The notes under the pieces were generated by a model. The model worked only from the letters and a program-made list of their open reading frames with translations, was not told the origin of the DNA and ran no database searches. From a virus (taxonomy: Duplodnaviria > Caudoviricetes), in IMG/VR virus record IMGVR_UViG_3300027721_000020, positions 1 to 53,727 of that record: DNA of 53,727 nucleotides. One strand, 5' to 3'. Both the position numbers and the translations under genes were made by a program. This document shows, piece after piece, positions 36,717 to 53,727 of this stretch (position 1 is the first letter of the stretch; the number at the start of each line of letters is the position of its first letter).

Positions 36717-36717
36717 A

Positions 36718-37530: not shown

Positions 37531-37547
37531 TAAAAACTTGCAAAATG
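37531..37547 (+). promoter_or_regulatory. Start-associated box TAAAAACTTGCAAAATG, copy 1
   Basis: Exact copies at 37853, 47932, 49653; near copy at 48112. Confidence 0.85.
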
Positions 37548-37807: not shown

Positions 37808-37840
37808 AAATAGGCAGCTATCAAGTTGCCTATTTGTTTC
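37808..37840 (+). terminator. Hairpin/terminator between the two paralogs
   Basis: AAATAGGCAGCT-ATCA-AGTTGCCTATTT then GTTTC. Confidence 0.6.
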
Positions 37841-37852: not shown

Positions 37853-37869
37853 TAAAAACTTGCAAAATG
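37853..37869 (+). promoter_or_regulatory. Start-associated box, copy 2
   Basis: TAAAAACTTGCAAAATG. Confidence 0.85.
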
Positions 37870-38503: not shown

Positions 38504-38722
38504 ATGAAAAAATCAAAAGTTTCCTCATCAGTAAGAGCCAATATCTCGTTTTATGCCGTTGAAAACGGATTCTCCTCATTTGTTGGAGAAGGTAAAGAGA
38601 TAAAATTAGGAAATGGTAGCCGATACGCCATCATAAAAAATAAAAAGTATCGAATTGATTTTGACGGGGTAAATAACTCCGAGTTAATCGGATTGGAATC
38701 AAACAAAAAAATACAATTATGA
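38504..38722 (+). CDS. Hypothetical protein
   Basis: Likely start MKKSKV. Confidence 0.6.
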   Translation: MKKSKVSSSVRANISFYAVENGFSSFVGEGKEIKLGNGSRYAIIKNKKYRIDFDGVNNSELIGLESNKKIQL

Positions 38723-39006: not shown

Positions 39007-39040
39007 ACATATTTTTTAAACTAAATTAATTCAAATAATT

Positions 39041-39346: not shown

Positions 39347-39348
39347 AA

Positions 39349-39498
39349 ATGAAACGAAAACGGATAAAAAAACCAGCGGGTAAAAGTAAAATCGACACAC
39401 TGACCATAGAAGTACTTGAATGCGAAAAAATTAAACTTCTTAAAATAGCTGAAAGCATTACAAAAAATAGTGTAATAACAAAAAATAAATCTAATTAA
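39349..39498 (+). CDS. Basic hypothetical protein, 49 aa (absent from ORF track)
   Basis: MKRKRIKKPAGKSKIDTLTIEVLECEKIKLL...; fills gap. Confidence 0.45.
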   Translation: MKRKRIKKPAGKSKIDTLTIEVLECEKIKLLKIAESITKNSVITKNKSN

Positions 39499-39509
39499 AA
39501 CTTGGTAAA

Positions 39510-39710
39510 ATGGAAAATGTAAAAAATCATGAATGCAATACCGACGGAGATAATTTTTTCTTCAATGGAAACGGGGAGTACTTCAATGTGAAGGAAACAA
39601 AAGGAATGAGCCCAATGGAAAAAATGGCATGGATGCAGGAAAAGAACACAATGGGGGTATGCCATTCATGCTCAATCTGCGGCAGGTATATGACAATAGC
39701 AGTATACTAA
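39510..39710 (+). CDS. Small Cys/His zinc-binding hypothetical protein
   Basis: HEC..CHSCSICGR; degenerate start box TAAAACTTGGTAAAATG. Confidence 0.6.
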   Translation: MENVKNHECNTDGDNFFFNGNGEYFNVKETKGMSPMEKMAWMQEKNTMGVCHSCSICGRYMTIAVY

Positions 39711-39712
39711 TT

Positions 39713-39871
39713 ATGTGCTGGTTACAAAAATGCTTGCTTTGGTTCCTACTAGGAGCATGTGAAAAATGTGGAGGAAAAATGGTTAATGAGGATAAAGGTA
39801 ATTACTCTTATTTTGCTGAAATTCCTCCGCATAAAGTATGTGAAAAATGTGGATTTATGGAAGAAGTTTAA
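39713..39871 (+). CDS. Small zinc-ribbon protein
   Basis: CEKCGG...CEKCGF. Confidence 0.55.
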   Translation: MCWLQKCLLWFLLGACEKCGGKMVNEDKGNYSYFAEIPPHKVCEKCGFMEEV

Positions 39872-39884
39872 AAAAAATTAGGAA

Positions 39885-41690
39885 ATGGCGAATAAATTCA
39901 TGGCTCTTAAAATGGCTAACTTATTTGAGATAGGAGACGATACGGTAATTCGTTTGGTCTTCCCTTTCAACCAGTACACCATTGATAATGTTAAGGCAAT
40001 ACCAGGAAGAAGGTATTCGGTTGAGCAAAAATATTGGACCGTCCCTCTACGAATAGAGAACTATTTTGAACTGAAGGAACTTCTTTTTTCCTTCGGTAGT
40101 GAATTGCAAAATTGGGCTGATAATGAGATCAGATCAAAAAAAGCCAAGTCTGTTAACCTTGACTTATCGGGGGTAAAAGGGACATTGTTGCCGTATCAAA
40201 TTGAAGGGGTCAAAGCGATTGAAAATAATGAAGGAAGGTGTCTATTGGCAGATGAGATGGGACTAGGTAAAACAGTACAAGCTTTGGTATGGCTTCACAC
40301 TCATCCCGAATTGCGTCCGGCACTCGTGGTTTGCCCTGCTAGTTTGAAATTAAATTGGGAGAAGGAAGCGTTAAAATGGATTAAGTGTAAGGATGTTCAG
40401 GTATTAGAAGGGAAGGAACTTGTTGCTTTGTCAAATGATATTATTATTATTAATTATGACATTATCGGAAATGATTCGAGACAATCTATCTCTAAAACAG
40501 GAGAACCCATGTTTAAGCCCAATGGTAAGCCTCGTATGGAAGAAATACCTAATTCTGGCTGGCAAGATGAATTGATTGCACATAACATCAAGGTAATAAT
40601 TTTGGATGAATCACATTACATCAAAAACGAAAACACCAAAAGAGCTACAGGAGTAAGGTCAATTTGCAGAGGAGTAAAACATATATTAGCTCTTACTGGT
40701 ACACCTATTGAAAATAGGCCTATTGAACTATATAATATTGTGGCTATGCTAAAGCCTACGTTATTTCCGAATAAATGGAACTACCAGCACCGATTTTGCG
40801 GAGCAAAGCACAACGGTTTTGGATGGGATTTTTCGGGGTCGAGCAATACGGAGGAACTTCATGAACTATTGACAAAATGGGTCATGATAAGGCGCATGAA
40901 AAGGGATGTTTTGCAAGATTTGCCGGATAAGATCTACTCATATATTCCGCTAAGAATTACTAACAGAGGAGAATATCGTAAGGCAGAGCAGGATTTTGTG
41001 GATTATTTACAAAATAAGGTATTAGGCACTTTGCAAAATAAGGTGGAGGAAAGTATGCAATTAGGTTTTCCTGAGATGCAGTTCACCGAAGCGTCTGTGG
41101 AAAATCTCAAACAAAGTATAGCGGACAAAACGAACCCATTAACAATAATAAGTGGATTAAAACAGTTAGCTGCACAAGGTAAAATAAACGGGATGTTAGA
41201 ATGGGTAGAGGATTTTCTGGAATCTGGCGAAAAACTTGTCTTATTTTGTGAACATATATTTGTAGTGGACGCCGTAATGGAGAAGTTCAACAAGGTGGCT
41301 GTGAAGGTCATAGGAGGAATGTCTGCAAAAAATAAGGAACTGTCAGTAACACAGTTCCAAGAAAACAAAAAAATAAAACTATTTGTAGGCACTTCTGCGG
41401 CAGAAGTAGGTTACACTTTGACCGCTGCATCAAATGTAGGAATTATTGAATTCCCCTGGAAACCTGGGCAACTATCCCAACGGGTAGATAGGCTACATAG
41501 AATCGGACAAAAGAATGCTGTTAATGTGTATTATTTCATCGGGGTAAGAACTATTGATGCGAAAATTGCCGAATTACTTGATGGAAAACAGAAGGTGCTA
41601 GATGCGGTATTAGATGGAAAAGAGACCGAAACGGTTAATTTAATCACAGAACTCATAAAAAAATATAAAAATGGAAATATCTCTAACTAA
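39885..41690 (+). CDS. SNF2-family (HARP/SMARCAL1-like) helicase
   Basis: LADEMGLGKT, VVCPASL, ILDESH, ALTGTPIEN, RLHRIGQ; N-terminal HARP-like segment. Confidence 0.93.
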   Translation: MANKFMALKMANLFEIGDDTVIRLVFPFNQYTIDNVKAIPGRRYSVEQKYWTVPLRIENYFELKELLFSFGSELQNWADNEIRSKKAKSVNLDLSGVKGTLLPYQIEGVKAIENNEGRCLLADEMGLGKTVQALVWLHTHPELRPALVVCPASLKLNWEKEALKWIKCKDVQVLEGKELVALSNDIIIINYDIIGNDSRQSISKTGEPMFKPNGKPRMEEIPNSGWQDELIAHNIKVIILDESHYIKNENTKRATGVRSICRGVKHILALTGTPIENRPIELYNIVAMLKPTLFPNKWNYQHRFCGAKHNGFGWDFSGSSNTEELHELLTKWVMIRRMKRDVLQDLPDKIYSYIPLRITNRGEYRKAEQDFVDYLQNKVLGTLQNKVEESMQLGFPEMQFTEASVENLKQSIADKTNPLTIISGLKQLAAQGKINGMLEWVEDFLESGEKLVLFCEHIFVVDAVMEKFNKVAVKVIGGMSAKNKELSVTQFQENKKIKLFVGTSAAEVGYTLTAASNVGIIEFPWKPGQLSQRVDRLHRIGQKNAVNVYYFIGVRTIDAKIAELLDGKQKVLDAVLDGKETETVNLITELIKKYKNGNISN

Positions 41691-42093
41691 TAGATTACAC
41701 TCATTTGAGAAAATGAATGGTGTGACCTTATATTCAAAAAAATATGGACACCATGATATGTATAAATGTGCAAAATGCGGAATCGAGGGGATACGTATAG
41801 GTTTGCATCCTTCTATTTTTTTACAACGCCTATACGATAGTGGTATAATCAGAGGTTGTAAGGATAGTGATAATTCATGGGTAGGGGTATTGATAGTAAT
41901 TCGACAGTGCTCGGCTGCAGGTCCTAGAGTTGATAACTTAACCCCTGATTCAATCCATGTAACGGTCGCTCCTCCAGACAATGAATATACAGGAGACATT
42001 GGGGTCTGGGTAATGGGTACTACTGAACCTGTAAAAATATTATGGTCAGAATTTTCAAAATATATTATGAAACGAACAAAAAAAAGGATATGA
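41671..42093 (+). CDS. Hypothetical Cys-containing protein
   Basis: DMYKCAKCGIEG; GVWVMG; ends MKRTKKRI. Confidence 0.65.
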   Translation: MEISLTNRLHSFEKMNGVTLYSKKYGHHDMYKCAKCGIEGIRIGLHPSIFLQRLYDSGIIRGCKDSDNSWVGVLIVIRQCSAAGPRVDNLTPDSIHVTVAPPDNEYTGDIGVWVMGTTEPVKILWSEFSKYIMKRTKKRI

Positions 42094-42290
42094 AAAAAAT
42101 GAAAAAAATTAAAATAATATTTATTTGGATAACATCAATCACAATTGTACTAATTGGTTGGATATCCATCTTATTTTACAGAGGATTAGCTGAATACTCT
42201 CCGTTTTTAACGGTGGTAAGTACATTTACAATAGGTCCTGCAATACTTTGGTATATTGAACTTTTAATTAATTTATTTACAGAGGATTAG
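42090..42290 (+). CDS. Small two-TM membrane protein
   Basis: Two hydrophobic segments. Confidence 0.6.
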   Translation: MKKMKKIKIIFIWITSITIVLIGWISILFYRGLAEYSPFLTVVSTFTIGPAILWYIELLINLFTED

Positions 42291-42292
42291 CA

Positions 42293-43204
42293 ATGGACAT
42301 TGAATCATTATACAGAGATCATAACATTAGGTATCAATCCGAAGGTCATAAGCATTGCAGACCAGGATGGATAAATACAGTGTGTCCTTTCTGTACTGGA
42401 GAACACGCTGGACTGCATCTTGGATATGATCTTGTCGGCAATAAGTTTGTATGTTGGCGCTGTGGAGGACATTGGACAGACCTCACTATTTCCAAACTCC
42501 TGAACATAACAAAACAAGAGGCTAATACAATTATCAGGCAATACGGAGCTTTGACAAGGAAAGCACCTGAAATGAAGAGGAAAATACGTATACTATCCTT
42601 TAAATTACCTGCTAATACCTCTGCATTGCAAGCTAATCATACTAAATATCTTACCAATCGTATGTTTGATGTGGATAAGCTTGTACATGAATGGAAAATC
42701 CAAGGCACAGGAGTCTCAGCTAAATTAGACAATATCGAGTATAAGCATAGGATTGTAATTCCATTTTTCTGGAATGGAGTTATGGTATCATTTGATAGCA
42801 GAGATATTACCAACAAATCCCAGTACAAGTATATGGCTTGTCCAGAAGCAAGGGAATTAATCGGGCATAAGCAAATATTGTATGGTCGAAAGGATAAATG
42901 GGGTAAGACAGGAATATGTGTAGAAGGCCCGACGGATGTATGGCGTTTCGGATTCAATTCATTTGCCACGTCAGGAATAAAATACACCCCTGCGCAATTA
43001 CGAATAATGGCTAAGACATTCACTAGGATTCCTGTTATATTCGACAATGATATAGGAAACCCTCAGGCAAAAATACAAGCCAACAAATTAGTAGCAGAGC
43101 TGAAATTTAGAGGAGTAGACGCCTTTAGAGTTGACATTGAAGGAGATCCTGGAGGAATGAAACAAACAGAAGCGGATTATTTAATCAAACAATTATTAAA
43201 ATAA
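42293..43204 (+). CDS. DNA primase (zinc-binding plus TOPRIM)
   Basis: CPFC..CWRCG, RIVIPF, CVEGPTD, IFDND, GDPG. Confidence 0.9.
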   Translation: MDIESLYRDHNIRYQSEGHKHCRPGWINTVCPFCTGEHAGLHLGYDLVGNKFVCWRCGGHWTDLTISKLLNITKQEANTIIRQYGALTRKAPEMKRKIRILSFKLPANTSALQANHTKYLTNRMFDVDKLVHEWKIQGTGVSAKLDNIEYKHRIVIPFFWNGVMVSFDSRDITNKSQYKYMACPEARELIGHKQILYGRKDKWGKTGICVEGPTDVWRFGFNSFATSGIKYTPAQLRIMAKTFTRIPVIFDNDIGNPQAKIQANKLVAELKFRGVDAFRVDIEGDPGGMKQTEADYLIKQLLK

Positions 43205-43211
43205 TAACAGT

Positions 43212-43454
43212 ATGTATAGTAATCGAACATGGTTAAATCCTATAGAATCGGACAGTACAGGTTCTATTGTATGTTACAGCGGAAAAGTTACATACAAAAG
43301 AAAACCAGTGAGTTCCACATTTATAGAAATATCGGATTGTCAAAATAAAGTAAGACTCCATCTATCATCAGATGACACTGTGGAGGATTTTATCCGCAAA
43401 TTAAGTGTATTAAAAAAAGAGATTGGAAAATTTATAGAGTATTTAGACCAATAA
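43212..43454 (+). CDS. Hypothetical protein
   Basis: RTWLNP..STG..ISDCQNKVRLH..FIRKL. Confidence 0.65.
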   Translation: MYSNRTWLNPIESDSTGSIVCYSGKVTYKRKPVSSTFIEISDCQNKVRLHLSSDDTVEDFIRKLSVLKKEIGKFIEYLDQ

Positions 43455-43457
43455 TAT

Positions 43458-43679
43458 ATGGAAAATGTGACTAAATGTAACAATGAGGACAGTACAGGGG
43501 ATGGTGGACATTATTTTTTGGCGATAATAGATATGATAGAAATTATATCTAAGATTAATGAAAATTATGGTGTGCTTTCGTGCTCAATTTGTGGAAATGA
43601 CTTAAAATGGTCTAAAGCAATTAATGGCCATATTAAAGGAAAATGTCTTACGGAAAATTGTGCATCCTGGATGATGTAA
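43458..43679 (+). CDS. Small zinc-ribbon-like protein
   Basis: CSICG..NGH..C.TENC. Confidence 0.6.
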   Translation: MENVTKCNNEDSTGDGGHYFLAIIDMIEIISKINENYGVLSCSICGNDLKWSKAINGHIKGKCLTENCASWMM

Positions 43680-43754
43680 CTCGAATTAAATTATTATTTG
43701 TAACTTTACGTTCTATTTAGAACGGTGTTTTAGTATTAATTTTAAATTTTTTGT

Positions 43755-44159
43755 ATGAAACCAATTAAAACGTTGTTTGCTTTGTTTGCCTTGTTTTCTT
43801 GCATGTTTGTTGCAGGAAAAGCTTACGGATTATCAAGTACGGATATTTTTACAGGGAAGGAGGTGTCCGTTATGGAAAGCACTAACTCCGTACTGCCATT
43901 AAATACCTTTATTTGCAGTGAGTTTGCTTACTATTATTCATCTTTAGGCTTACATTTTTTGGTCGAATCAGGAAAAGACGTGTTTACGTTTCCTGAGGAA
44001 ACCGATTGGGGCAATTATGTGCAGGGCATGACACATATACCTTATTTCAGGCAAAATAAGTTTCCTTCATATACACGGTCAGGACAAATTTGCCGAAAAA
44101 TACCGACATTAGAAAATTTAGGTGGACTATCTTGCGGCGGACAAGGAGATAGATGTTAA
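43755..44159 (+). CDS. Secreted/lipoprotein candidate
   Basis: Signal peptide MKPIKTLFALFALFSC; own TAACTTTAC element at 43701. Confidence 0.55.
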   Translation: MKPIKTLFALFALFSCMFVAGKAYGLSSTDIFTGKEVSVMESTNSVLPLNTFICSEFAYYYSSLGLHFLVESGKDVFTFPEETDWGNYVQGMTHIPYFRQNKFPSYTRSGQICRKIPTLENLGGLSCGGQGDRC

Positions 44160-44250
44160 TAATATCACATTATAATACTTTGATTATCATATTATTAGGT
44201 ATTATTTTCGATTTAATTTTTGGGGGTTAATTATTTTTTGTACTTTTACG

Positions 44251-44307
44251 TTACTCTACAAAATAATGCTAAATTGTGCCATAATATATCATTATTTTGT
44301 AGAGTAA
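44251..44307. repeat. Perfect 18-bp inverted repeat with 21-nt loop
   Basis: TTACTCTACAAAATAATG (44251..44268) and CATTATTTTGTAGAGTAA (44290..44307). Confidence 0.9.
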
Positions 44308-44332
44308 ATTGTTATTAGTTTTTAGTTGAATC

Positions 44333-44388
44333 AAAAGTCTTTGGGGAGTAGGTGAGGCACCACTGAAACCCAAGGGCTTTTTTATTTT
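44333..44388 (+). terminator. Terminator/attenuator-like hairpin upstream of replication initiator
   Basis: AAAAGTCTTTGGG...CCCAAGGGCTTTT followed by T-tract. Confidence 0.6.
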
Positions 44389-44482
44389 AAAAATTTCATG
44401 ATATGAATACAATAAAGGAGAAAAAAGAACTATTAAAAAACCATAATACAGGAAATGGAATCCACAAATAAATAGACGGTAT

Positions 44483-45292
44483 ATGAAAAATACAAATTAT
44501 TTTGTTATTCAAGGATGGATGATAAATGAATTAAAACTAGGTGGAACGAATCTTATGATTTACGCCATAATTTATGGATTTTCACAGGATGAAAATTCCT
44601 CATATACTGGAAGTTTAGCATATTTAGCATCTTGGGTCAATGCAAGTAAACCTACTGTAATTAAGGCACTAAAGGAACTGGTAGACTTGGAGTTAATTTA
44701 CAAACATACCGAAGTTAAAAATAAGATAATTTTCAACTCGTATAAGGTATTAACGGTAGTAAAGGAACTTTACGGGGGTAGTAAAGAACCTTTACAGGGG
44801 GGTAGTAAAGAACCTTTACTCAATAATAAACAATATATACATAAAGAAATAAATAATAAAAAAAATAAACAAAAAAAAACTGAAATCATTACAAAAATGG
44901 AAAGGACTAAACCTTCCAAAATAAAAGAATCCATATCCGCCAAATCAACATTACCGAACTTCTATTTCGATTACGGATTTTTCACAAATGATTTTTCCAA
45001 AATATGGTTTGATGAATTCCTTCCATTGAAAAAAAGGAAGAAAGCAGCGATTACTGAACGAGCATTGAATTCCCAATTGAAAAAAATAAGCAATTATAGC
45101 CAAAATAATTATGATACTGCCTTAGAAATCCTTGAAAATAGTGTTAATGCGGGTTGGTCAGATTTTTATCCATTAAAAAATAAAACCAATTACACTCCAA
45201 CAAACAAATTAGGCTCCCGTTCTCAAACTTCCCATACCATTGACTATTCGAGCAAGGGGAAAAAAATACTTCATTTTTCTGAAATGTCATAA
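44483..45292 (+). CDS. Replication initiator (winged HTH, replisome-organiser/lambda O-like)
   Basis: LMIYAIIYGFSQD..YTGSLAYLA..SKPTVIKALKELV; internal iterons; followed by DnaC-like gene. Confidence 0.8.
   Translation: MKNTNYFVIQGWMINELKLGGTNLMIYAIIYGFSQDENSSYTGSLAYLASWVNASKPTVIKALKELVDLELIYKHTEVKNKIIFNSYKVLTVVKELYGGSKEPLQGGSKEPLLNNKQYIHKEINNKKNKQKKTEIITKMERTKPSKIKESISAKSTLPNFYFDYGFFTNDFSKIWFDEFLPLKKRKKAAITERALNSQLKKISNYSQNNYDTALEILENSVNAGWSDFYPLKNKTNYTPTNKLGSRSQTSHTIDYSSKGKKILHFSEMS
44755..44819 (+). repeat. Three 19-bp iterons (putative origin) followed by an A-rich tract
   Basis: GGTAGTAAAGGAACTTTAC at 44755; GGTAGTAAAGAACCTTTAC at 44777 and 44801; each contains GTAAAG..CTTTAC dyad. Confidence 0.8.
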
Positions 45293-45296
45293 ATTA

Positions 45297-45893
45297 ATGA
45301 TTATGAAAGAGTTCAAACATGCACCAATAGAAATTCAGGCTGAAAGGAATACTTTTTGGCAGGAAAATAAAAAACAGGAAATAATAAAATACTTCTCTCC
45401 AAGAGTAGCTAAGGTAATATCGGAGGTATACTCACCAAGTATGGAGTACCCTATCCCCAGTTGCTACATGTATGGTAAAACAAGGACAGGCAAAACAATT
45501 GCCGTGTATATTCGGTTATTAGAATGGTGCAGAATCCAATACATTAATAGAGGAATGATGAATTACAAGGTAACCTCTGTATTGCACCTGCTTGAAAGTC
45601 TTAGGAATAATTACAATAATCCTGAAATAAAGGAATTAATTGTCAGTGATGCGAAAAATGCAAGATTGCTGGTATTAGATGATTTTGGAGCGGAAAAGAT
45701 TACCGAATGGGCGTTCATGATGCTGTATGACATTATTGACCACAGGTATAACAACCTATTGACCACGTTCTACACCTCCAATTTGTCATTGAATGAGCTG
45801 AGTGCCCAATTACAGGATGACAGAATCCCATCCAGAATAGCACAGGATTGCGGTGAAAACATTTTTGAGTTTACAAATAAACCATATATTTAA
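45297..45893 (+). CDS. DnaC/IstB-like helicase loader ATPase
   Basis: GKTRTGKT, LLVLDDFGAE, IIDHRY, YTSNL, DRIPSRI. Confidence 0.9.
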   Translation: MIMKEFKHAPIEIQAERNTFWQENKKQEIIKYFSPRVAKVISEVYSPSMEYPIPSCYMYGKTRTGKTIAVYIRLLEWCRIQYINRGMMNYKVTSVLHLLESLRNNYNNPEIKELIVSDAKNARLLVLDDFGAEKITEWAFMMLYDIIDHRYNNLLTTFYTSNLSLNELSAQLQDDRIPSRIAQDCGENIFEFTNKPYI

Positions 45894-46025
45894 TTCCGTT
45901 CGGTTTAAGCGATTATTTTTTGAAAACAATACATAGACATTGATTTTACATTTTATTAGCTCTCCAGCAAAATTTTACGTTGTTCCGTAAGGTTAAATTA
46001 ATAACTTAAAGTAATTAGTATCATT

Positions 46026-46244
46026 ATGAATGAAAATATAAATTGGACTAAACATAAAGAAGACCTTATAGAGAAGGGAAAATCCCTCAACCAAGTTGAA
46101 CTAAACAAGGTAATTCTTACCTTAGATAATTATAGGAATGGCATCATACTGTCAGTAGACCTACCTAATCGGGAAGTCATATTATTATACATTGAAGGTT
46201 TAATGGAAATATACAAAACCTTAAAAACCACTAACAATTTCTAA
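46026..46244 (+). CDS. Hypothetical protein
   Basis: 72-aa ORF. Confidence 0.55.
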   Translation: MNENINWTKHKEDLIEKGKSLNQVELNKVILTLDNYRNGIILSVDLPNREVILLYIEGLMEIYKTLKTTNNF

Positions 46245-46255
46245 TCATTATAAAA

Positions 46256-47833
46256 ATGATTGAACGTCAAATAATAATTGGACTAATTACGTCCACAGCG
46301 TACCTTAAGAGGATTAAGCCTTCTTGGAATCCTATGTTACTGGAATCCTTTACAGCTAGATTGTTAGCTGATTGGGCATTTTCCCATTTTAAAAAATATG
46401 GAAAGGCTCCTAATAAGGAGATTGAAGCTATTTTTTTCAAAAAAGCAAGGGAAGGATTCAGTATGGTCTTTACAAAGGAAATAGCAGAAGAGATAGAAGA
46501 GGACATCCTGCCGGACCTAAGTGATGAGAGTGTTCACACTGAATTTGATTTAGAATACATGGTATCTGAGACATTGGTTTATTTGCGCTCTAGGCAGATA
46601 CTTATTTATGGTTCGCAGCTCACCAATATAATTGAAAACGGAAAAGGTGATATTGAGGAACGGATAAAACAAGCGGATAACATATCGAAGGAGTTCAAAA
46701 TTGTCAATACAATAAAGGACACAAGTATAGACCTGAGCAAAAAAGAAAGTCGGACAAACATAAAAAAGGCTTTTTGTAGTGCAGGGGACTGCATCGTCCA
46801 TTGGCCAAAACAATTAGGGCGATTTTGGAATGATAATTTTGTAGCAGGAGGATTCCTTTCTATTTTGGCTACTGAAAAACGGGGAAAGACATTTTGGTTA
46901 TTAGAAATTGCCATTCGAGCTGCCAGGCAAGGCAGAAAAGTAGCTTTCTTCCAAGCTGGAGATATGAACGAAGCGGAACAATTGAAGCGGATAGGAGTAT
47001 ACCTTTGCAAGCGTTCCAACTTGGAAAAGTATTGTAGTACTCATTGGGAACCTGTGAGAGACTGCATATTGAATCAAATGGACGAATGCGGAAAATCTGA
47101 AAGGGAATGCGATTACGGCATATTCCAAGAATTGAAAGAGGATGAAATTCGTAAATTAGGAAGCAAGGAGTTAATAGAGGCTGCGGAATCAGTAGAAGAC
47201 TACCTTCCATGCTACAATTGTAAGGATTATGACTTGAAAAAATTAGGAGCTCCTTATGTGAGAAAGGTGAGGAGCGTAGAACCATTAGAATGGAAAGACG
47301 TAGATAACGCTGTGGAGAGATTTTTCCGAAAATTCAAAAGGAGCTTCAAATTAGACACCTCAGCAAGCGGGACACTCTCAATAGATGCTGCTATTTCCAA
47401 AATGGATGCTTGGCAGGAGGAGGATGGATTTGTTGCGGATGTTGTGTTGTTTGACTATGCAGATTTGCTGGTACCTTCAATCAAAACAGAATTCAGGCAC
47501 CAGCAAAACCAAATATGGAAAGACCTGCGGAAGCTTTCACAGACAAAAAGAGAAGGCATACTTCCATTAGTAATATCACCTACGCAGGCTGATGCTCCTG
47601 CCTATAAGGCATATAGACTAAGTTTAGCAAATTTTTCTGAGGATAAACGTAAATATGGGCATGTTACTGCTATGTGGGGACTTAATCAGGACCCATTAGG
47701 ACGGGAAAAAGGAATAGGTCTAATGAGAATTAATGAACTAATTAAACGAGATGGAGATTTTTGCGAAACAAACGAAATAACTGTTTTACAGAATCTTAGG
47801 CAAGGACGACCATTTAAAGGAAGCTATTTTTAA
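46256..47833 (+). CDS. DnaB-like (SF4) replicative helicase with Cys-rich insertion
   Basis: ATEKRGKT, VLFDYADL, SPTQA, FSED motifs. Confidence 0.8.
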   Translation: MIERQIIIGLITSTAYLKRIKPSWNPMLLESFTARLLADWAFSHFKKYGKAPNKEIEAIFFKKAREGFSMVFTKEIAEEIEEDILPDLSDESVHTEFDLEYMVSETLVYLRSRQILIYGSQLTNIIENGKGDIEERIKQADNISKEFKIVNTIKDTSIDLSKKESRTNIKKAFCSAGDCIVHWPKQLGRFWNDNFVAGGFLSILATEKRGKTFWLLEIAIRAARQGRKVAFFQAGDMNEAEQLKRIGVYLCKRSNLEKYCSTHWEPVRDCILNQMDECGKSERECDYGIFQELKEDEIRKLGSKELIEAAESVEDYLPCYNCKDYDLKKLGAPYVRKVRSVEPLEWKDVDNAVERFFRKFKRSFKLDTSASGTLSIDAAISKMDAWQEEDGFVADVVLFDYADLLVPSIKTEFRHQQNQIWKDLRKLSQTKREGILPLVISPTQADAPAYKAYRLSLANFSEDKRKYGHVTAMWGLNQDPLGREKGIGLMRINELIKRDGDFCETNEITVLQNLRQGRPFKGSYF

Positions 47834-47840
47834 AAAAATA

Positions 47841-47894
47841 TTTAAAAATAAGTTTAAAAAAGTTTGGAAATTGGAAAATAAGCATTAACTTTAC
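47841..47894 (+). promoter_or_regulatory. Duplicated early promoter, copy B (TTTG-N19-TAACTTTA)
   Basis: Near-identical to 37437..37491. Confidence 0.75.
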
Positions 47895-47931
47895 GGTATA
47901 ATTGATTGAATAAAATTTATTATTAATAATT

Positions 47932-47948
47932 TAAAAACTTGCAAAATG
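47932..47948 (+). promoter_or_regulatory. Start-associated box, copy 3
   Basis: TAAAAACTTGCAAAATG. Confidence 0.85.
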
Positions 47949-48107
47949 GAACAAATAGTAAAGAATATACGAATTAATACTTTTACAGACGCAAAAAAGG
48001 CTTTAAAGGAATCTGCGAAAAGAAATAAACAAGGTATCCCTACTTGCATCGCAGTATGTTACATAAATAATGTAAAAACATATCATTTAGGGCCTCGTAT
48101 TTTTTAA
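47946..48107 (+). CDS. Hypothetical protein, 53 aa (absent from ORF track)
   Basis: MEQIVKNIRINTFTDAKKALKESAKRNKQGIPTCIAVCYINNVKTYHLGPRIF; ATG inside conserved box. Confidence 0.65.
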   Translation: MEQIVKNIRINTFTDAKKALKESAKRNKQGIPTCIAVCYINNVKTYHLGPRIF

Positions 48108-48111
48108 CATG

Positions 48112-48127
48112 TAAAAACTTGCAAAAT
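48112..48127 (+). promoter_or_regulatory. Start-associated box, copy 4 (ATG displaced to 48132)
   Basis: TAAAAACTTGCAAAAT-AACA-ATG. Confidence 0.8.
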
Positions 48128-48131
48128 AACA

Positions 48132-48419
48132 ATGGTAAGAACAAAACCCCGAAGAGGTCCTAACGACCCTGTAATATCCTCTATTAAAATAGGGAGAAAA
48201 ATATATGAGGTAAAGAAAGGAGATTACATATTATACAATCAAAGCTGTTACCAATTTTATACTGGAGATAATAGGACCTTACGTTACAATAATCATACCT
48301 GCTATCGCTATATTATGCTACCATATTTGGCAATACAAGATATACCTCTGCATAAAATGAAAAAAATAATCGAGGAAAAGAACCTCACAAATTGGATATT
48401 GGAATACTATTTTTTCTAA
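48132..48419 (+). CDS. Hypothetical protein (MVRTK start)
   Basis: 95-aa ORF. Confidence 0.65.
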   Translation: MVRTKPRRGPNDPVISSIKIGRKIYEVKKGDYILYNQSCYQFYTGDNRTLRYNNHTCYRYIMLPYLAIQDIPLHKMKKIIEEKNLTNWILEYYFF

Positions 48420-48441
48420 ATAATCACTAAAATAACTAAGT

Positions 48442-48819
48442 ATGTACACGATAACAAAAGAATTTGAATTTTCAGCAAGTCATCAATTACTGTACCTAGC
48501 AGAAGGGCATCCTTGCAGCAGGCTTCATGGACATAATTATAGGATACGAATTGAGTGCAAAAATGCTGTTTTGAATAAAGCGGGGTTTGTACTTGATTAC
48601 CATGAATTAGAAGGTATTAAGACTTGGTTGAATGAAATGATTGACCATGAACACTTAAATAACCTAATGGAAGAAAATCCTACCGCTGAGAATATAGCAA
48701 CTATGATTTACCGGTATGTAAAGCACACATTGAAAATTTGGCAAATTTCTGCCGTAGAAGTGTCCGAAACTCCTAAAACAAATTGTCGATATGAGCCAGA
48801 TTATAATACCAAGTTATAG
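48442..48819 (+). CDS. queD: 6-carboxy-5,6,7,8-tetrahydropterin synthase
   Basis: FSASH, CSRLHGHNY, DHEHLN, PTAENIA, VSETP. Confidence 0.95.
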   Translation: MYTITKEFEFSASHQLLYLAEGHPCSRLHGHNYRIRIECKNAVLNKAGFVLDYHELEGIKTWLNEMIDHEHLNNLMEENPTAENIATMIYRYVKHTLKIWQISAVEVSETPKTNCRYEPDYNTKL

Positions 48820-49540
48820 CATTAATAATACAAATTTCGGAAACCCCGATAATTGTTTGCGAATTTCCGAGTTTTTTTGTGATACTATACAAGGAGAGGG
48901 GGTAAATATAGGAATGCCCGCTGCATTCCTTAGATTACAAGGATGCACACTAAATTGCAACTATTGCGATACAAAGGATATTTGGAAATTCGGCAGTGAT
49001 TACTCCTTCACCTACTTATTTGAATTGATGGAAACGTATCATCTCATCCCCAAATTAAGACAGGGAGTCCACTTGGTTATTACAGGAGGCAGTCCTCTGT
49101 TACAACAAAAAAACCTTATTTTATTTTTCAATAAATTTTCTAATAAATATAAATTCACTCCATATATTGAAATAGAAAACGAATGTATAATAATTCCACA
49201 TGAGGAATTAATTAATATGGTCTCGTGCTGGAATAATAGTCCTAAATTAAAATCAAGTGGTATGAAACCCCAAAATATAGTGGTGGAGTATATGCGGTAT
49301 TTACACAATAGTTGGTTTAAATTTGTTGTATCCTCGCAAGAGGATTGGATTGAAATAGCGGAAAGTTATTTGAATACAGGGTTAATTAATAAAGAGCAGG
49401 TAATATTAATGCCTAAAGGTGCTAATTTAGCTGAATTAGAAAAAAATAGGCAGCTAACTGTGGAATTAGCTATTCAAAACGGAGTGCGGTACTGCACACG
49501 TGAACACGTGGTTTTGTGGGACTTAGCAACGGGGGTTTAA
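48791..49540 (+). CDS. queE: 7-carboxy-7-deazaguanine synthase (radical SAM)
   Basis: ISEFF..IQGEG..FLRLQGCTLNCNYCDT, VITGG, SPKL, FKFVV. Confidence 0.93.
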   Translation: MSQIIIPSYSINNTNFGNPDNCLRISEFFCDTIQGEGVNIGMPAAFLRLQGCTLNCNYCDTKDIWKFGSDYSFTYLFELMETYHLIPKLRQGVHLVITGGSPLLQQKNLILFFNKFSNKYKFTPYIEIENECIIIPHEELINMVSCWNNSPKLKSSGMKPQNIVVEYMRYLHNSWFKFVVSSQEDWIEIAESYLNTGLINKEQVILMPKGANLAELEKNRQLTVELAIQNGVRYCTREHVVLWDLATGV

Positions 49541-49652
49541 TATTTTAAAAAAATATTTAAACTTTTTTTAAATTATTTTGTAGTATAGGTGTTCAACCGT
49601 TGGAAATTTGTTTTATCTTTACATTATAAATAAAAACAAAAATTTTAACAAT

Positions 49653-49669
49653 TAAAAACTTGCAAAATG
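49653..49669 (+). promoter_or_regulatory. Start-associated box, copy 5
   Basis: TAAAAACTTGCAAAATG; TATCTTTAC element upstream at 49614. Confidence 0.85.
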
Positions 49670-49894
49670 GAAAATTTAAAAAATGTCACCAAAAAACAAA
49701 TATCCTTTTATTGTGATTTTATAAAATTAAATTGGCAAGAAATATACGAAACCGAAGAGTCATTTTATGTGGAATGTGTAAGTAATAAACATTGTCATAT
49801 CGAGCACTTTACATCATGGGATAAAGATACCAATACTTACAGACTTTCAAAAAAAGATCTGAATACTCCAATAACTGGCAATTATTTTAAATAA
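49667..49894 (+). CDS. Hypothetical protein
   Basis: 75-aa ORF with conserved start box. Confidence 0.65.
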   Translation: MENLKNVTKKQISFYCDFIKLNWQEIYETEESFYVECVSNKHCHIEHFTSWDKDTNTYRLSKKDLNTPITGNYFK

Positions 49895-49962
49895 AAAATC
49901 CCTGCATGTTTCCTGCAAGTTCATGCAGGGCTACCCCGCTGCCGTAAATGGAGCGGGGTTTT
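49895..49962 (+). ncRNA. Putative two-hairpin small regulatory RNA; loop complementary to the start-associated box
   Basis: CCCTGCATG-[TTTCCTGCAAGTT]-CATGCAGGG then ACCCCGCT-N11-AGCGGGGT-TTT; GC-rich island in AT-rich intergenic DNA. Confidence 0.6.
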
Positions 49963-50009
49963 GGGAGTACAAAATTTTAGGTAATAAATAATAACTAATA
50001 CGTAATAAA

Positions 50010-50834
50010 ATGAAAGTAGCAGATTTGAAAAAAACCGCAAAAGAATTAAATGACATTCTTTTCGATGACAAAACCAAAATCAATGTGAATCAAAGCCAAT
50101 CGAGCTTAGAAAACCTTGTTAAAGAAGCAGCAACCTTACTGGATGAGGGAGAAGAAGAGGAGCTCACCGCCATAGCTAGGAGAGTAATCGCAGAATTAAA
50201 AGAAAATAAGGAAGAGGTTGACGAGGAAGAGGTTGACGAGGAAGAGGTTGACGAGGAAGAGGTTGACGAGGAAGAGGTTGACGAGGAAGAGGTAATTGCG
50301 ACTAAAAAAGTAACTAAGGTTCCTGTACCATCACCAGTTACCAAAATTAACAAAACTGAGCCTTTGCCAGAGGACAAAGAAGCAGATATGAGTTTTGATG
50401 ACTTGACCTTGCAAGAACAAGTGCAAGCCACAGCTGATTTATTGGAACTTAAAAAACTTGTGAAGTCAGAGGAAACCTTCAAATACCTAAGACATTGCAT
50501 AGGTATTCAAAAAGATGCAAAAAAATTAAAAACATCTATGTTATTAGCCATCAAGGCGGAGCAAGCTACACCGGTAAAGGCAGCATCTAAACCTGCACCT
50601 GTTAAAAAAGAAGTAGTAAAAAATACCGGTGATAAACCAGAAAGTTGTGAATCGGTTGCATCGAGATTAGTCGCAAGCAAAGCCACAGAAGCTGTTTGGC
50701 TCAGTACTTTTACCGCTATTTATAAGGCAAAAGGAAAAACGGACACTGCTTTCATCCAAAAAAGAATTGATATATACAAAGAGATTGCACTTAGAAAGGC
50801 CGGACTTTCAGTGGTAAAGCCCGCAAAAAAATAG
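50010..50834 (+). CDS. Hypothetical protein with acidic (EEVDE)n tract and K/A-rich C-terminus
   Basis: 274-aa ORF. Confidence 0.75.
   Translation: MKVADLKKTAKELNDILFDDKTKINVNQSQSSLENLVKEAATLLDEGEEEELTAIARRVIAELKENKEEVDEEEVDEEEVDEEEVDEEEVDEEEVIATKKVTKVPVPSPVTKINKTEPLPEDKEADMSFDDLTLQEQVQATADLLELKKLVKSEETFKYLRHCIGIQKDAKKLKTSMLLAIKAEQATPVKAASKPAPVKKEVVKNTGDKPESCESVASRLVASKATEAVWLSTFTAIYKAKGKTDTAFIQKRIDIYKEIALRKAGLSVVKPAKK
50211..50293 (+). repeat. 15-bp tandem repeat GAAGAGGTTGACGAG x5 plus partial copy
   Basis: Perfect copies at 50211, 50226, 50241, 50256, 50271. Confidence 0.95.
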
Positions 50835-50843
50835 TGTATTTAG

Positions 50844-50864
50844 AACCCTCATAATGAGGGTTTT
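50844..50864 (+). terminator. Short hairpin before folE
   Basis: AACCCTCA-TAA-TGAGGGTT-TT. Confidence 0.45.
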
Positions 50865-50884
50865 CCATCTTAATAATACTTAGT

Positions 50885-51466
50885 ATGAATAATAATTGTG
50901 TAATAAAAGATCAATCAGATCAAATCATGCAAACATTACTTTCCACCATATTACAATATATAGGAGACAATCCAAATAGAGAAGGTCTCCAAGATACACC
51001 AAAACGTGTAATAAAAAGTTGGAATGAGCTTTACTGTGGGTATTCACAATCCCCCGAAAGTATGCTAACCACATTTGCTGAGGATACCTCCGACCAAATA
51101 GTAGTTCTAAAGGACATTGAGCTATACTCCATGTGTGAACACCATATGTTACCATTCTTTGGAAAAGCCCATGTAGCATATTTACCTGATGGTAAAATAA
51201 TCGGTATTTCAAAATTAGCTAGGTTAGTTGATATTTACGCCCGTAGGTTGCAGATACAGGAACGTATAGGTGACCAAGTTACCTCTGCATTGATGCAATA
51301 CCTAAAGCCAAAAGGAGCTGCTTGCATAATTGAAGCCTCTCATATGTGTATGAGAATGAGAGGGGTTTCAAAACAACATTCAAAAATGATGACTTCAAGC
51401 ATGAAAGGAGTATTCCTGACTGATACAAATTTGGAAAGTAAACTGTTAACCATGATCTCATTATGA
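50885..51466 (+). CDS. folE: GTP cyclohydrolase I
   Basis: [45 protein letters not shown]. Confidence 0.97.
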
Positions 51467-53179: not shown

Positions 53180-53727
53180 ATGAAAATATTAAATATACCA
53201 ATAGAACCAATAGGGGAGCGGTATTCAGTACAGTGGGATAGATGGTTTACTGATTACTTAGAGAAGTCCGGACTTGATTATACTACCGTATACGGTAACG
53301 AAACCAGTGGCATAATACAAACAGGCAGCTTTCTGGATGTTATCGAAACCAATGAATATAAGACAACCCAATTACTTGGAATTATTCAAATCCTTAAAAA
53401 TTGGAAATCAAAGGAAACATTAGTTCTATTTTTCCATGACTTATGGTTCCCTGGGTTACCTACAATAGCTTATATTAGAGATGGTTTGAAATTGAATATT
53501 AAGATCTGCGGTTGTTTGCATGCCGGTAGTTATGACCCACACGACTTTCTTACAAAAATGGGAATGGGGATTTGGGCTTCACACTCAGAAAATAGTTGGT
53601 GGAATATCGTAGACCTGGTTTTTTTGGCTACTAATTACCATGCGCAATTACTATGGAAAAATAGGATTATTCACTTTGATAAAATAAAGGTAACAGGATT
53701 CCCCATATTTCCGATTATACATAGCGC
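53180..53727 (+). CDS. N-terminal part of glycosyltransferase (continues at position 1-581)
   Basis: Open frame MKILNIPIEPIGERYSVQW...HDLWFPG...LHAGSYDPHDFL... running into the terminal repeat. Confidence 0.85.
   Translation, partial: MKILNIPIEPIGERYSVQWDRWFTDYLEKSGLDYTTVYGNETSGIIQTGSFLDVIETNEYKTTQLLGIIQILKNWKSKETLVLFFHDLWFPGLPTIAYIRDGLKLNIKICGCLHAGSYDPHDFLTKMGMGIWASHSENSWWNIVDLVFLATNYHAQLLWKNRIIHFDKIKVTGFPIFPIIHS
53595..53727. repeat. Terminal direct repeat, copy 2
   Basis: Matches 1..133. Confidence 0.95.

What the first reader, a model, noticed from the sequence alone, without database searches (positions are those of the whole stretch)
49895..49962. Putative phage small RNA whose hairpin loop is antisense to a box at the start of five early genes
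Seen: a perfect 9-bp stem (49900..49908/49922..49930) presents the loop UUUCCUGCAAGUU, followed by a GC-rich terminator-like hairpin. UGCAAGUU is the exact reverse complement of AACUUGCA, the core of TAAAAACTTGCAAAAT found at 37531, 37853, 47932, 48112 and 49653. In four cases the box includes the start codon. The upstream CAUG-UUU could extend pairing over AAAAUG with bulges. The RNA lies in the 3' region of one of the boxed genes. Inference: a trans-acting sRNA regulon that silences (or activates) translation of the earliest genes, acting as a feedback timer. I do not recognise it as a known RNA family.
Basis: partly seen in the sequence, partly recalled or inferred. Interest (0 to 1): 0.86.

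Follow-up and report, generated by a model that had tools for sequence, protein, structure and literature searches.

The report
Phage mRNA tail pairs with start
A hairpin just after a small early phage gene shows a loop that can pair with the gene's own start region, and the same two-part design, with matching base changes, turns up in many otherwise unrelated phages, so it is probably a real RNA switch on translation.

Summary
A 9-bp hairpin (49900-49930) with loop UUUCCUGCAAGUU is followed by an intrinsic terminator, and five exact 16-nt boxes lie at gene starts. Within this window alone the 8-nt loop/box match is near chance (P about 0.07-0.10).

Comparison with other phages changes the verdict. 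In otherwise unrelated viral and metagenomic records, small ORFs that begin with the same box are followed, 0-25 nt after the stop codon, by the same loop motif. The stems differ but still pair (91.8% paired against 57.8% shuffled, 8 of 9 pairs changed on both sides).

Box and anti-box covary. Of 21 modules, CTTGC boxes go with GCAAG or GCAAAG (9) and CTCGC boxes with GCGAG (12), with no crossed combination.

Canonical Bacteroidota -7 promoter elements lie 17-51 nt upstream, so the box is in the 5' UTR.

Most genomes have one box and one anti-box on the same transcript. The core mechanism is therefore probably 5'-3' pairing in cis that occludes the start region. This phage has four or five further boxes that could be hit in trans.

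The 'sRNA regulon' reading is only partly supported. No RNA data exist. The scan had noted the box, but not this module, on this same window only.

The parts
49614..49621 (+). Putative Bacteroidota-type -7 promoter element TATCTTTA. The predicted start of transcription is about 49626, giving a 5' UTR of about 41 nt (inferred).
   Evidence: for the sequence. In one search the same TATCTTT[G/A] or another TAnnTTT[G/A] lies 17-51 nt upstream of boxes in most modules. The consensus and the 4-5 nt spacing to the start site come from passages of PMC6847099.
49653..49669 (+). Box TAAAAACTTGCAAAATG: the last 14 nt of the 5' UTR plus the start codon of ORF 49667-49894. It is the proposed pairing target (AACUUGCA, then AA after two mismatches).
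   Evidence: duplex -11.1 kcal/mol.
49667..49894 (+). Cargo ORF of 75 aa with no family assigned. It is unrelated to the cargo ORFs of the other modules.
49900..49930 (+). Anti-box hairpin: 9-bp stem and 13-nt loop 49909-49921 (UUUCCUGCAAGUU). The anti-box core is at 49914-49921. The 5' arm begins 5 nt after the stop codon. An alternative 6-bp pairing joins loop CCUGCA to the 3' arm UGCAGG.
   Evidence: (R1 42.5 bits, the only hit in the window).
49933..49962 (+). Intrinsic terminator: GC-rich hairpin 49933-49959 and U tract 49959-49962.
37531..37547 (+). Box copy at the start of ORF 37545-37796, a hexapeptide-repeat protein of 83 aa.
37808..37835 (+). Terminator hairpin after ORF 37545-37796. 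CAAGTT at 37822-37827, in the loop and first stem base, complements AACTTG of the box (6 nt). Possibly a second, weaker anti-box.
   Evidence: (2 of the 15 CAAGTT on the + strand lie in hairpin loops, both after boxed genes).
37853..37869 (+). Box copy at the start of ORF 37867-38193, a paralogue of 37545 at 38% identity.
39495..39512 (+). Degenerate box TTAAAACTTGGTAAAATG at the start of ORF 39510-39710.
   Evidence: (D19).
47932..47948 (+). Box copy at the start of ORF 47946-48107.
48112..48127 (+). Box copy 5 nt upstream of the ATG (48132) of ORF 48132-48419, which leads the queD-queE genes.

Best explanation
The hairpin is the 3'-UTR half ('anti-box') of a two-part RNA module. The 5' half is the box that forms the last 14 nt of the 5' UTR plus the AUG. 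Host RNA polymerase starts at a Bacteroidota-type promoter, and the mRNA begins with a short A-rich leader that ends in the box. Right after the stop codon, a stem holds out a conserved 11-14-nt loop (UUUCC-N-GCAAGUU here), and a terminator follows. The loop pairs with positions about -13 to -2 of the start region, on the same mRNA or on another copy. This most likely occludes the start site and limits or times translation of small early genes. The anti-box is the last thing transcribed, so each mRNA would be open while it is being made and closable once complete. The 5' arm of the hairpin abuts or overlaps the stop codon, so terminating ribosomes would remodel it. In this phage four or five further early genes carry the same box without a full anti-box of their own, so the element may also act on them in trans. 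Shown: structure, co-occurrence, covariation, and position relative to promoter, stop codon and terminator. Inferred: that pairing happens in vivo, its sign (repression), the timing logic and the trans action.
For: (1) Co-occurrence. In 10 phage records, 8 of 17 boxed ORFs have an anti-box pattern within 60 nt after the stop, against 9 of 1432 other ORFs. Among start-like boxed ORFs the counts are 5 of 8 (viral, CTTGC), 4 of 7 (viral, CTCGC) and 11 of 21 (metagenome). L025, L320, L595 and L565 are further cases that the filters missed. (2) The records are otherwise unrelated. Window proteins hit G006-G009 only through TerS (38% identity) and TerL (32%), and those records share at most 182 nt with each other. 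The cargo ORFs are unrelated. (3) The stem is conserved by compensation. In alignment A6 (7 sequences), 91.8% of cells are paired against 57.8% shuffled and 27-53% slid. Eight of 9 pairs changed on both sides, and 0 of 500 shuffles reach the score. Cognate arms pair at 96% against 45% for non-cognate arms, with 0 of 20000 permutations as high (8 hairpins). There are six G-U cells and no A-C, which points to the sense strand as RNA. (4) Box/anti-box covariation. In 21 modules, TTGC goes with GCAAG 7 times and with GCAAAG 2 times, and TCGC goes with GCGAG 12 times, with no crossed pair. In G003 the loop UUUGCAAAGUU is an 11-of-11 complement of the neighbouring variant box with CTTTGC. The second box of G001 (CUUGU) keeps pairing through a G-U. 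(5) The box is RNA, not promoter. TAnnTTT[G/A] lies 17-51 nt upstream at a variable distance (consensus from PMC6847099). (6) In L565 the box is at the operon start and the anti-box is 1.3 kb downstream, before the terminator, so the two mark transcript ends rather than gene ends. (7) Where the anti-box is single-stranded (CTCGC type), whole-transcript folding predicts 4.8-9.2 box:anti-box pairs in 3 of 4 modules, against 0.3-0.8 with a shuffled anti-box. (8) The covariance model finds the hairpin only next to boxes. In 1.08 Mb of TerL and helicase relatives there was one weak hit, which lies in coding sequence. (9) Feasibility. Eight-nt anti-RBS sequences act over hundreds of nt in B. subtilis (PMC12697547, abstract), and the icaR 3' UTR pairs with its own start region (PMC3868564, abstract).
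Against: Within the window alone the match is at chance level (P 0.07-0.10). Contiguous pairing is only 6-8 bp in the hairpin type, with duplex energies of -6.5 to -11.1 kcal/mol. Nested folding gives 0.00 expected pairs for the window's transcript, so a loop-to-leader pseudoknot has to be assumed. The 21 modules are not independent. Several share flanks (L496/L534/L544/L594; L484/L491), and the substitution covariation may go back to as few as one or two events. Some anti-boxes carry uncompensated changes (G009 GCAAGC, L597 UUUAGCGAGU, G006 extra A). About half of the start-like boxed ORFs have no anti-box, including 3-4 in this window. The searches were anchored on exact boxes, so box conservation across phages is partly by construction. 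Alignment A6 was fitted to the model's structure. The conserved UUUCC of the loop is only partly explained by pairing. Inverted DNA repeats would covary in the same way.
Confidence: 0.6

Rival explanations
1. The hairpin plus terminator is released, or separately transcribed, as a discrete small RNA of about 65 nt. Its main job is to act in trans on the five or six boxed early mRNAs of this phage as a feedback timer.
For: There are five exact boxes and one degenerate box against one full anti-box in the window. Multi-box genomes exist elsewhere. G001 has 2 boxes and 1 loop, and the second box pairs through a G-U. The G003 loop matches the neighbouring gene's box better than its own. The G002 anti-box GCGAG can pair with both of its boxes. 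A hairpin followed by a terminator is the usual shape of 3'-derived sRNAs (recalled, no call).
Against: G006, G007, G008 and G009 have a single exact box and a single anti-box on the same gene. No conserved -7 element was seen ahead of the hairpins (by eye). There is no evidence of processing.
Confidence: 0.2
2. A DNA-level reading. The box core and anti-box are short inverted repeats recognised as DNA. They could be a pair of operator sites for one phage DNA-binding protein, or sites for inversion or exchange of the ORF between them (fimS-like switch or cassette exchange).
For: The repeats are inverted, 7-11 bp long, and flank 120-1300 bp. Both sides change together, as cognate protein sites or crossover cores would. 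Different ORFs sit between identical flanks in close relatives (L496/L534/L544/L594; L484/L491). An HNH endonuclease gene is inserted at the anti-box in L565.
Against: The anti-box is held in the loop of a stem that covaries and uses G-U pairs valid on the sense strand only. Both elements lie inside the transcript, downstream of the promoter and upstream of the terminator. Exchange by homology does not require the two flanks to complement each other. No joint was listed when contigs of 4 runs were laid on 37000-51000, but these were low-depth contigs, so this is weak. No recombinase was looked for in the other records.
Confidence: 0.12
3. An ordinary tandem terminator. The first hairpin is only a second terminator stem, and on the minus strand it is followed by a T run. 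The loop is conserved for another reason, such as a protein site or spread of the regulatory flanks as one unit. Its complementarity to the box has no function.
For: The position is right after a stop codon and ahead of a U-tract terminator. The in-window statistics are at chance. Flanks clearly spread horizontally.
Against: This does not explain why the loop sequence is kept while the stems change. It also does not explain why GCAAG becomes GCGAG exactly where the box becomes CTCGC, nor the 11-nt match in G003.
Confidence: 0.08

Closest known systems
icaR mRNA of Staphylococcus aureus: 5'-UTR/3'-UTR base pairing (PMC3868564, abstract read)
   Same: A short 3'-UTR motif pairs with the translation start region of the same mRNA and blocks initiation. 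It is a cis element, not a separate gene.
   Different: icaR pairs a UCCCCUG motif with a Shine-Dalgarno sequence in a long 3' UTR and makes an RNase III substrate. Here the host type lacks Shine-Dalgarno use and the target is an A-rich leader with a CUUGC core. The anti-box sits in a hairpin loop 0-25 nt after the stop codon. The module is shared by many phages with different cargo genes. No sequence relation.
3'-UTR-derived trans-acting small RNAs with a seed and the mRNA's own terminator (named from memory, no call)
   Same: A hairpin plus intrinsic terminator at the 3' end of an mRNA, and a seed complementary to the start regions of several mRNAs of the same genome.
   Different: The best-conserved target is the parent mRNA itself. 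Release of a small RNA is not shown. Bacteroidota are recalled to lack Hfq and ProQ (memory, no call).
PeSL 'promoter-early stem-loop' cassettes of T4-type phages (PMC2839356, abstract read; PMC4122927, search listing only)
   Same: Conserved promoter/terminator units lie between small non-essential early ORFs, and ORFs are shuffled between conserved regulatory flanks in close relatives.
   Different: PeSLs are sigma-70-type promoters plus terminator stem-loops. No complementarity between the start region and the stem-loop loop is part of their description in the abstract. Here the promoters are of the Bacteroidota -7 type, and the defining feature is the box/anti-box complementarity.
Long-range anti-RBS sequences within mRNAs of Bacillus subtilis (preprint PMC12697547, abstract read)
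   Same: Eight-nt sequences hundreds of nt downstream pair with the ribosome binding site, lower translation and promote decay.
   Different: Those are selected against in natural genes. Here the complementary sequence is kept, displayed by a dedicated stem and covaries with its target.
hbs mRNA 5'/3'-UTR interaction in B. subtilis (PMC5737220, search listing and start of abstract only)
   Same: Contact between the two ends of one mRNA is coupled to translation.
   Different: It is described as controlling ribonuclease access. No sequence or structural likeness was tested here.

Membership tests
Any Rfam 15 family | Score at or above the family's gathering threshold | tested here: not met
   0 matches in the whole window. 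In 49600-50020 at E up to 10 there were only 7 matches of 11-19 bits, against thresholds of 35-80 bits.
Intrinsic (Rho-independent) terminator | GC-rich stem-loop directly followed by a U tract at the end of a gene | tested here: met
   Hairpin 49933-49959 followed by TTTT, 39 nt after the stop codon. This holds for the second hairpin only. The first hairpin has no U tract on the + strand.
cis 5'-UTR/3'-UTR pairing element (icaR type) | The 3'-UTR motif is complementary to the translation start region of the same transcript | tested here: met
   Box 49653-49669 and loop 49909-49921 flank ORF 49667-49894, with 8 contiguous pairs. The same holds in 21 modules.
cis 5'-UTR/3'-UTR pairing element (icaR type) | Complementarity maintained in evolution | tested here: met
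   CTTGC/GCAAG against CTCGC/GCGAG with no crossed case in 21 modules. The number of independent events is small.
cis 5'-UTR/3'-UTR pairing element (icaR type) | Pairing lowers translation or stability in vivo | not testable with these tools
   Needs reporters, toeprinting or structure probing.
3'-UTR-derived trans-acting sRNA | A discrete stable small transcript, from its own promoter or from processing | not testable with these tools
   No transcript data could be laid. No conserved -7 element was seen ahead of the hairpins by eye.
3'-UTR-derived trans-acting sRNA | Seed complementary to several target start regions | tested here: met
   Five exact boxes and one degenerate box in the window.
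PeSL-like mobile regulatory cassette | Conserved terminator-promoter units between small early ORFs, with ORF replacement between them in close relatives | tested here: met
   Unrelated ORFs of 109, 279, 152 and 76 aa lie between the same flanks (L496, L534, L544, L594), and ORFs of 60 and 91 aa likewise (L484, L491).
PeSL-like mobile regulatory cassette | Sigma-70-type early promoter as part of the unit | tested here: not met
   The upstream elements are of the TAnnTTT[G/A] type.
Invertible DNA segment (fimS-like) | Both orientations present in populations, and a recombinase | tested here: inconclusive
   No joints were listed for contigs of 4 runs, but depth was low and only contigs were available. 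Recombinase genes were not searched for.
Bacteroidota sigma-A promoter with the box as its -7 element (leaderless mRNA) | T-12 A-11 T-8 T-7 T-6 G-5, with 4-5 nt to the start site | tested here: not met
   The box gives only 4 of 6 of these positions (AAAACTTG). Better -7 elements lie 17-51 nt upstream at variable spacing (consensus).

The most novel reading that the evidence does not exclude
The module is a translation-sensing closed loop for mRNAs of hosts that do not use Shine-Dalgarno pairing. The 3' end folds back on the start region. The 5' arm of the hairpin (or, in the CTCGC type, the anti-box itself) lies within the footprint of a ribosome sitting on the stop codon. Each terminating ribosome would therefore open the 5'-3' duplex right beside the AUG and could reinitiate there. 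Translated mRNAs would stay open and idle ones would lock shut. This gives a bistable, self-timing switch carried as a portable frame into which phages drop different early genes. In this phage the same loop would also couple five or six early genes to one another.
Probability: 0.15. Interest if true: 0.9.

Novelty: new variant of a known kind. Interest (0 to 1): 0.74.

Why it matters
Control of translation in Bacteroidota and their phages is poorly understood, because these hosts do not rely on Shine-Dalgarno pairing. If true, this is a ready-made and naturally varied system: a 17-nt start box and a loop of about 13 nt that track each other across many phages. It would show how an mRNA's two ends talk to each other in such hosts. 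It would add a widespread natural case to the few known bacterial 5'-3' UTR interactions. It could explain how phages dose or time small early proteins. It may also offer a compact, portable expression-control part for Bacteroidota. Nature has already made the compensatory mutant pair (CUUGC/GCAAG and CUCGC/GCGAG), so the decisive experiment is simple to design.

Tried and rejected
Box as a promoter -7 element giving leaderless mRNAs. This was attractive because G-5 plus 4 nt reaches the A of ATG. It was rejected because canonical -7 elements lie 17-51 nt upstream at variable distance.

Box as a phage RNA-polymerase promoter. No such polymerase was found; the 889-aa ORF is a DNA polymerase.

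Sigma-54 reading of TTGCA. Rejected by eye, because there is no GG at the -24 position.

Close relatives through the neighbouring genes. None of the 274-aa or 75-aa proteins was found in viral contigs. One 83%-identical protein lies on an 865-nt contig. INPHARED phages gave no DNA match.

TerL relatives (80 loci) and helicase relatives (72 loci). Only L170 carries the box, and there was no convincing hairpin. Other relatives have their own repeated start-proximal motifs, which were not pursued.

Exact 31-nt hairpin in viral contigs: 0 matches.

Loop pattern with its closing pair in viral contigs. Nearly all had stems of 1-2 pairs, so they were chance hits, and the known members were not among the rows.

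Bacterial genomes. There were 120 loci with the 17-mer, of which 10 of 121 sites looked like gene starts under the filter (15 of 119 distinct sites under the looser filter). The box is therefore not a general host signal. Two of the loci, L287 and L320, hold the full module.

Sequencing runs. No RNA holder was listed. Contigs of X2, X3, X4 and X6 laid on 37000-51000 were short identical pieces (0 other letters in the listed pieces). They therefore gave no natural variants at box or hairpin, and no joints.

MAFFT alignments A2 and A3 were out of register for the arms and were not used.

The longest-complement measure between start region and 3' flank was confounded by A runs against T runs.

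Complementarity of the box to host rRNA was considered but not tested, because no host sequence is in hand.

Literature. Six box and loop strings were searched as text, and only 3 unrelated primer-type hits were listed. Three topic searches found nothing relevant. These searches are the only basis for saying that I found no description of the module. Supplements of papers were not opened.
Full report
WHAT IS THERE. The window is a whole viral record of 53,727 nt with a 133-nt terminal overlap. Structural genes lie on the minus strand up to TerS/TerL (35466-37290). Replication and 7-deazaguanine genes lie on the plus strand from 37545. At 49900-49930 a perfect 9-bp stem carries the 13-nt loop UUUCCUGCAAGUU. 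At 49933-49959 a GC-rich hairpin is followed by UUUU (MFE -34.3 kcal/mol, z -4.15). The pair begins 5 nt after the stop codon of a 75-aa ORF (49667-49894). The 16-mer TAAAAACTTGCAAAAT occurs five times, all on the plus strand (0.31 expected, 0 of 100 shuffles reach 5). Four copies run into the ATG of a small ORF and one ends 5 nt before an ATG. A sixth, degenerate copy is at 39495-39512. The loop holds the only plus-strand reverse complement of AACTTGCA.

IS IT MORE THAN CHANCE? Inside this window alone it is not. The 8-mer is expected 2.41 times on both strands. There are 88 perfect hairpins with stems of 7 bp or more on the plus strand, and 46 of them have loops of 8 nt or more. A random 16-mer from the window finds an 8-nt complement in one of those loops in 6.9% of trials. 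A 16-mer ending at an ATG does so in 7.7%, and a shuffled box in 9.9%. At this stage I read the two hairpins as the terminator of a small gene cassette and the box as an expression signal.

THE TURN. The exact 17-mer box (with ATG) occurs in 48 viral-contig loci. Some are chance hits inside genes. Others sit at the start of small ORFs, and several records carry a second, near-identical copy at another gene start. I then printed what follows the stop codon of each boxed ORF. The window's loop motif reappeared in records that share nothing else with the window:
- G001: GTTTCCCGCAAGTTC
- L006/G006: TTTCCTGCAAAGTTC
- L025/G007 and L029/G008: TTTCCGCAAGTTC
- L050/G009: GTTTCCTGCAAGCTC
- L045/G003: TTTGCAAAGTT
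Each lies 0-24 nt after the stop codon and 10-16 nt before a terminator hairpin.

G006-G009 share with the window only TerS (38% identity, G009) and TerL (32%, G007). They share at most 182 nt with one another. Their cargo proteins are unrelated. In ten records, 8 of 17 boxed ORFs have an anti-box pattern within 60 nt after the stop, against 9 of 1432 other ORFs.

THE HAIRPIN IS A CONSERVED STRUCTURE. The arms differ from phage to phage but stay complementary. Examples are CCCUGCAUG/CAUGCAGGG here, AUCUCACAG/CUGUGGGAU in G009, CUUGUGG/CCGCAGG in G001, CUGUAAUG/CAUUACAG in G003 and CUGCGAU/AUCGCAG in L555. For eight hairpins, cognate arms pair at 96% of positions and non-cognate arms at 45%, and 0 of 20000 permutations reach the observed total.

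A covariance model built from three of them (R1) recovered the others and two new ones (L565 and L320). On the model-made alignment of seven (A6), 91.8% of cells are paired, against 57.8% after shuffling and 27-53% after sliding. Eight of nine pairs have changes on both sides, and 0 of 500 shuffles reach the covariation score. The alignment is fitted to the model, so the hand count is the independent check. Six cells are G-U and none is A-C, so the stem makes sense on the sense strand only, which points to RNA.

The model found nothing convincing in 1.08 Mb of TerL and helicase relatives that lack the box. The one 22-bit hit there lies in coding sequence and has no terminator.

BOX AND ANTI-BOX CHANGE TOGETHER. 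G002 has a variant box, AAAAACTCGCAAAATG, and the 3' flank of that gene reads TTTTGCGAGT, the exact complement of ACTCGCAAAA. I scanned viral contigs for the variant box (40 loci). Of 7 start-like ORFs, 4 carry TTTTGCGAGT 8-24 nt after the stop and none carries GCAAG there. A metagenome scan allowing either box (84 loci) added more cases. Among them is L555, whose 7-bp hairpin shows the loop UUCUGCGAGUU: the window's architecture with the compensatory base.

In all, 21 modules were tabulated. TTGC goes with GCAAG 7 times, TTGC with GCAAAG twice, and TCGC with GCGAG 12 times, with no crossed combination. In G003 the loop UUUGCAAAGUU is an 11-of-11 complement of the neighbouring gene's variant box, which has CTTTGC. 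The second box of G001 (CUUGU) would pair with its loop through a G-U.

There are caveats. Several modules share flanks (L496/L534/L544/L594; L484/L491). The substitution may therefore go back to one or two events. A few anti-boxes carry uncompensated changes (G009, L597, G006).

WHERE THE BOX LIES. Aligning the upstream sequence of 50 boxed starts shows a canonical Bacteroidota -7 element (TAnnTTTG, often TATCTTTG/A or TATATTTG). It lies 17-51 nt upstream of the box at variable distance. The consensus, and the 4-5 nt spacing to the start site, come from passages of PMC6847099. In the window the element is TATCTTTA at 49614-49621. The box is therefore the 3' end of a short 5' UTR plus the AUG, not a promoter, and my interim leaderless idea fails. 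Both box and anti-box lie inside the transcript. In L565 the box heads a 1.3-kb operon and the anti-box hairpin sits before its terminator. The pair thus marks the two ends of a transcript.

HOW IT MOST LIKELY WORKS (inference). The loop can pair with about -13 to -2 of the start region. In the window that is 8 pairs, two A-C mismatches and two A-U pairs, at -11.1 kcal/mol. In the CTCGC type it is 10-11 contiguous pairs, at about -14 kcal/mol. There, whole-transcript folding predicts the long-range pairing outright in 3 of 4 modules (4.8-9.2 expected pairs against 0.3-0.8 with a shuffled anti-box). For the hairpin type the contact is a pseudoknot, which nested folding cannot show (0.00 for the window).

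Occlusion of an unstructured A-rich start region should lower initiation in a host that does not use Shine-Dalgarno pairing. The anti-box is transcribed last, so an mRNA would be open while nascent and closable when complete.

In 9 of 9 hairpin-type modules the 5' arm starts within 5 nt of the stop codon or overlaps it. A terminating ribosome would therefore melt the stem. In several modules the freed 3' arm can then pair with the UCCNGC part of the loop. Which way this coupling pushes expression cannot be told from sequence.

Precedents exist. The icaR 3' UTR pairs with its own start region (PMC3868564, abstract). Eight-nt anti-RBS sequences act over hundreds of nt in B. subtilis (PMC12697547, abstract).

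CIS OR TRANS. G006, G007, G008 and G009 have one exact box and one anti-box on the same gene, so the conserved relation is in cis. The window has four or five further boxes. One of them (37531) is followed by a terminator hairpin whose loop region holds CAAGUU, a 6-nt complement. The others have none. Trans action of the 49909 loop on them is plausible but untested. G001, G002 and G003 are other multi-box genomes.

RIVALS. Inverted DNA repeats, whether operator pairs or inversion or exchange sites, would also covary. ORFs are indeed swapped between identical flanks, and an HNH gene is inserted at the anti-box in L565. This reading does not explain a covarying, G-U-containing stem that displays the repeat, nor why both repeats lie inside the transcript. 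A plain double terminator does not explain loop conservation and covariation.

COMPARISON AND NOVELTY. There is no Rfam family. The box and loop strings, and three topic searches, found no description in the paper library. In mechanism the module works like icaR-type 5'-3' UTR pairing. In its possible trans role it works like 3'-derived sRNAs. In its genomic behaviour it resembles PeSL cassettes of T4-type phages (PMC2839356, abstract). It differs from all three in architecture, host type and portability. I rate it a new variant of a known kind.

HOST AND HABITAT. The promoters are of the Bacteroidota type. One module lies on a contig titled as a Chitinophagaceae MAG (L287). The DNA holders of the window are sediment, soil and wetland runs.

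VERDICT. The antisense relation is real and conserved. The mechanism is probably cis 5'-3' pairing, with a possible trans layer in this phage. No expression data could be had.

Noticed in passing
window 1-133 and 53595-53727: A 133-nt direct repeat at the two ends of the record (99% identical). It is an assembly overlap of a circular or terminally redundant genome, so the record is probably complete, although it is listed as linear and 89% complete.
   Followed up: no
L496, L484, L498, L552, L584, L588, L597 (3' flanks of CTCGC-box genes): In the CTCGC modules the single-stranded anti-box is followed by a small hairpin. Its 3-4-bp outer stem covaries (GUGG/CCAC, GCGG/CCGC, ACGG/CCGU, UACC/GGUA, GCAG/CUGC). 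It encloses GAAA on one side and (A/G)GUA on the other, with a tetraloop-capped inner stem. The GAAA/AGUA pairing of strands recalls a sarcin-ricin or loop-E type internal loop (recalled, not tested). No U tract follows.
   Followed up: partly
L565 1209-1790: An HNH_3 endonuclease gene (Pfam E 3.5e-11) sits exactly at the anti-box. A truncated copy of the motif (TGTTTCCTGCAA) lies before the gene and the full hairpin after it, as if the gene had been inserted into the loop.
   Followed up: partly
L496/L534/L544/L594 and L484/L491: Nearly identical promoter-box and anti-box flanks enclose unrelated ORFs (109, 279, 152 and 76 aa; 60 and 91 aa). Only L534 and L544 share an N-terminal stretch (31% over 98 aa). 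This is cargo replacement inside a fixed regulatory frame.
   Followed up: partly
window 44752-44819: Three 22-nt direct repeats (two identical, one at 77%) lie inside the replication-initiator (O-like) gene 44483-45292. They look like origin iterons within the initiator gene, as in lambda (recalled) (D18).
   Followed up: no
window 50194-50308: Five to six tandem 15-nt repeats (AGGAAGAGGTTGACG) lie inside the unassigned 274-aa ORF 50010-50834, giving an acidic EEVD-type repeat. Contigs of other runs show a 3-nt deletion and a 3-nt insertion there.
   Followed up: no
L170 (relative G005) 2236, 3554, 3670, 8085, 10865: Five identical copies of the 22-nt palindrome CTTTTGGCACAAATGCCAAAAG in a phage that shares helicase and primase with the window. 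It is a repeated hairpin of unknown role.
   Followed up: no
window 37545-37796 and 37867-38193: The first two boxed genes are paralogues (38% identity) made almost only of hexapeptide (left-handed beta-helix) repeats, at 83 and 108 aa. These are unusually small stand-alone proteins of that fold.
   Followed up: no
L179, L173, L180, L219, L169 (helicase relatives): Other relatives carry their own repeated motifs between a terminator and the start codon of small genes, for example TATGTTTAACTTAAAA...AAAATG four times in L179. The L179 motif resembles the window's TTTTAACANNTAAAAAC leader. Whether they have matching 3' elements was not checked.
   Followed up: no
window 49901-49919, minus strand: On the minus strand the first hairpin is followed by ATTTTTT and was scored as terminator-like. 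In this phage it could also stop antisense transcription. The T run is not present in the other modules.
   Followed up: partly
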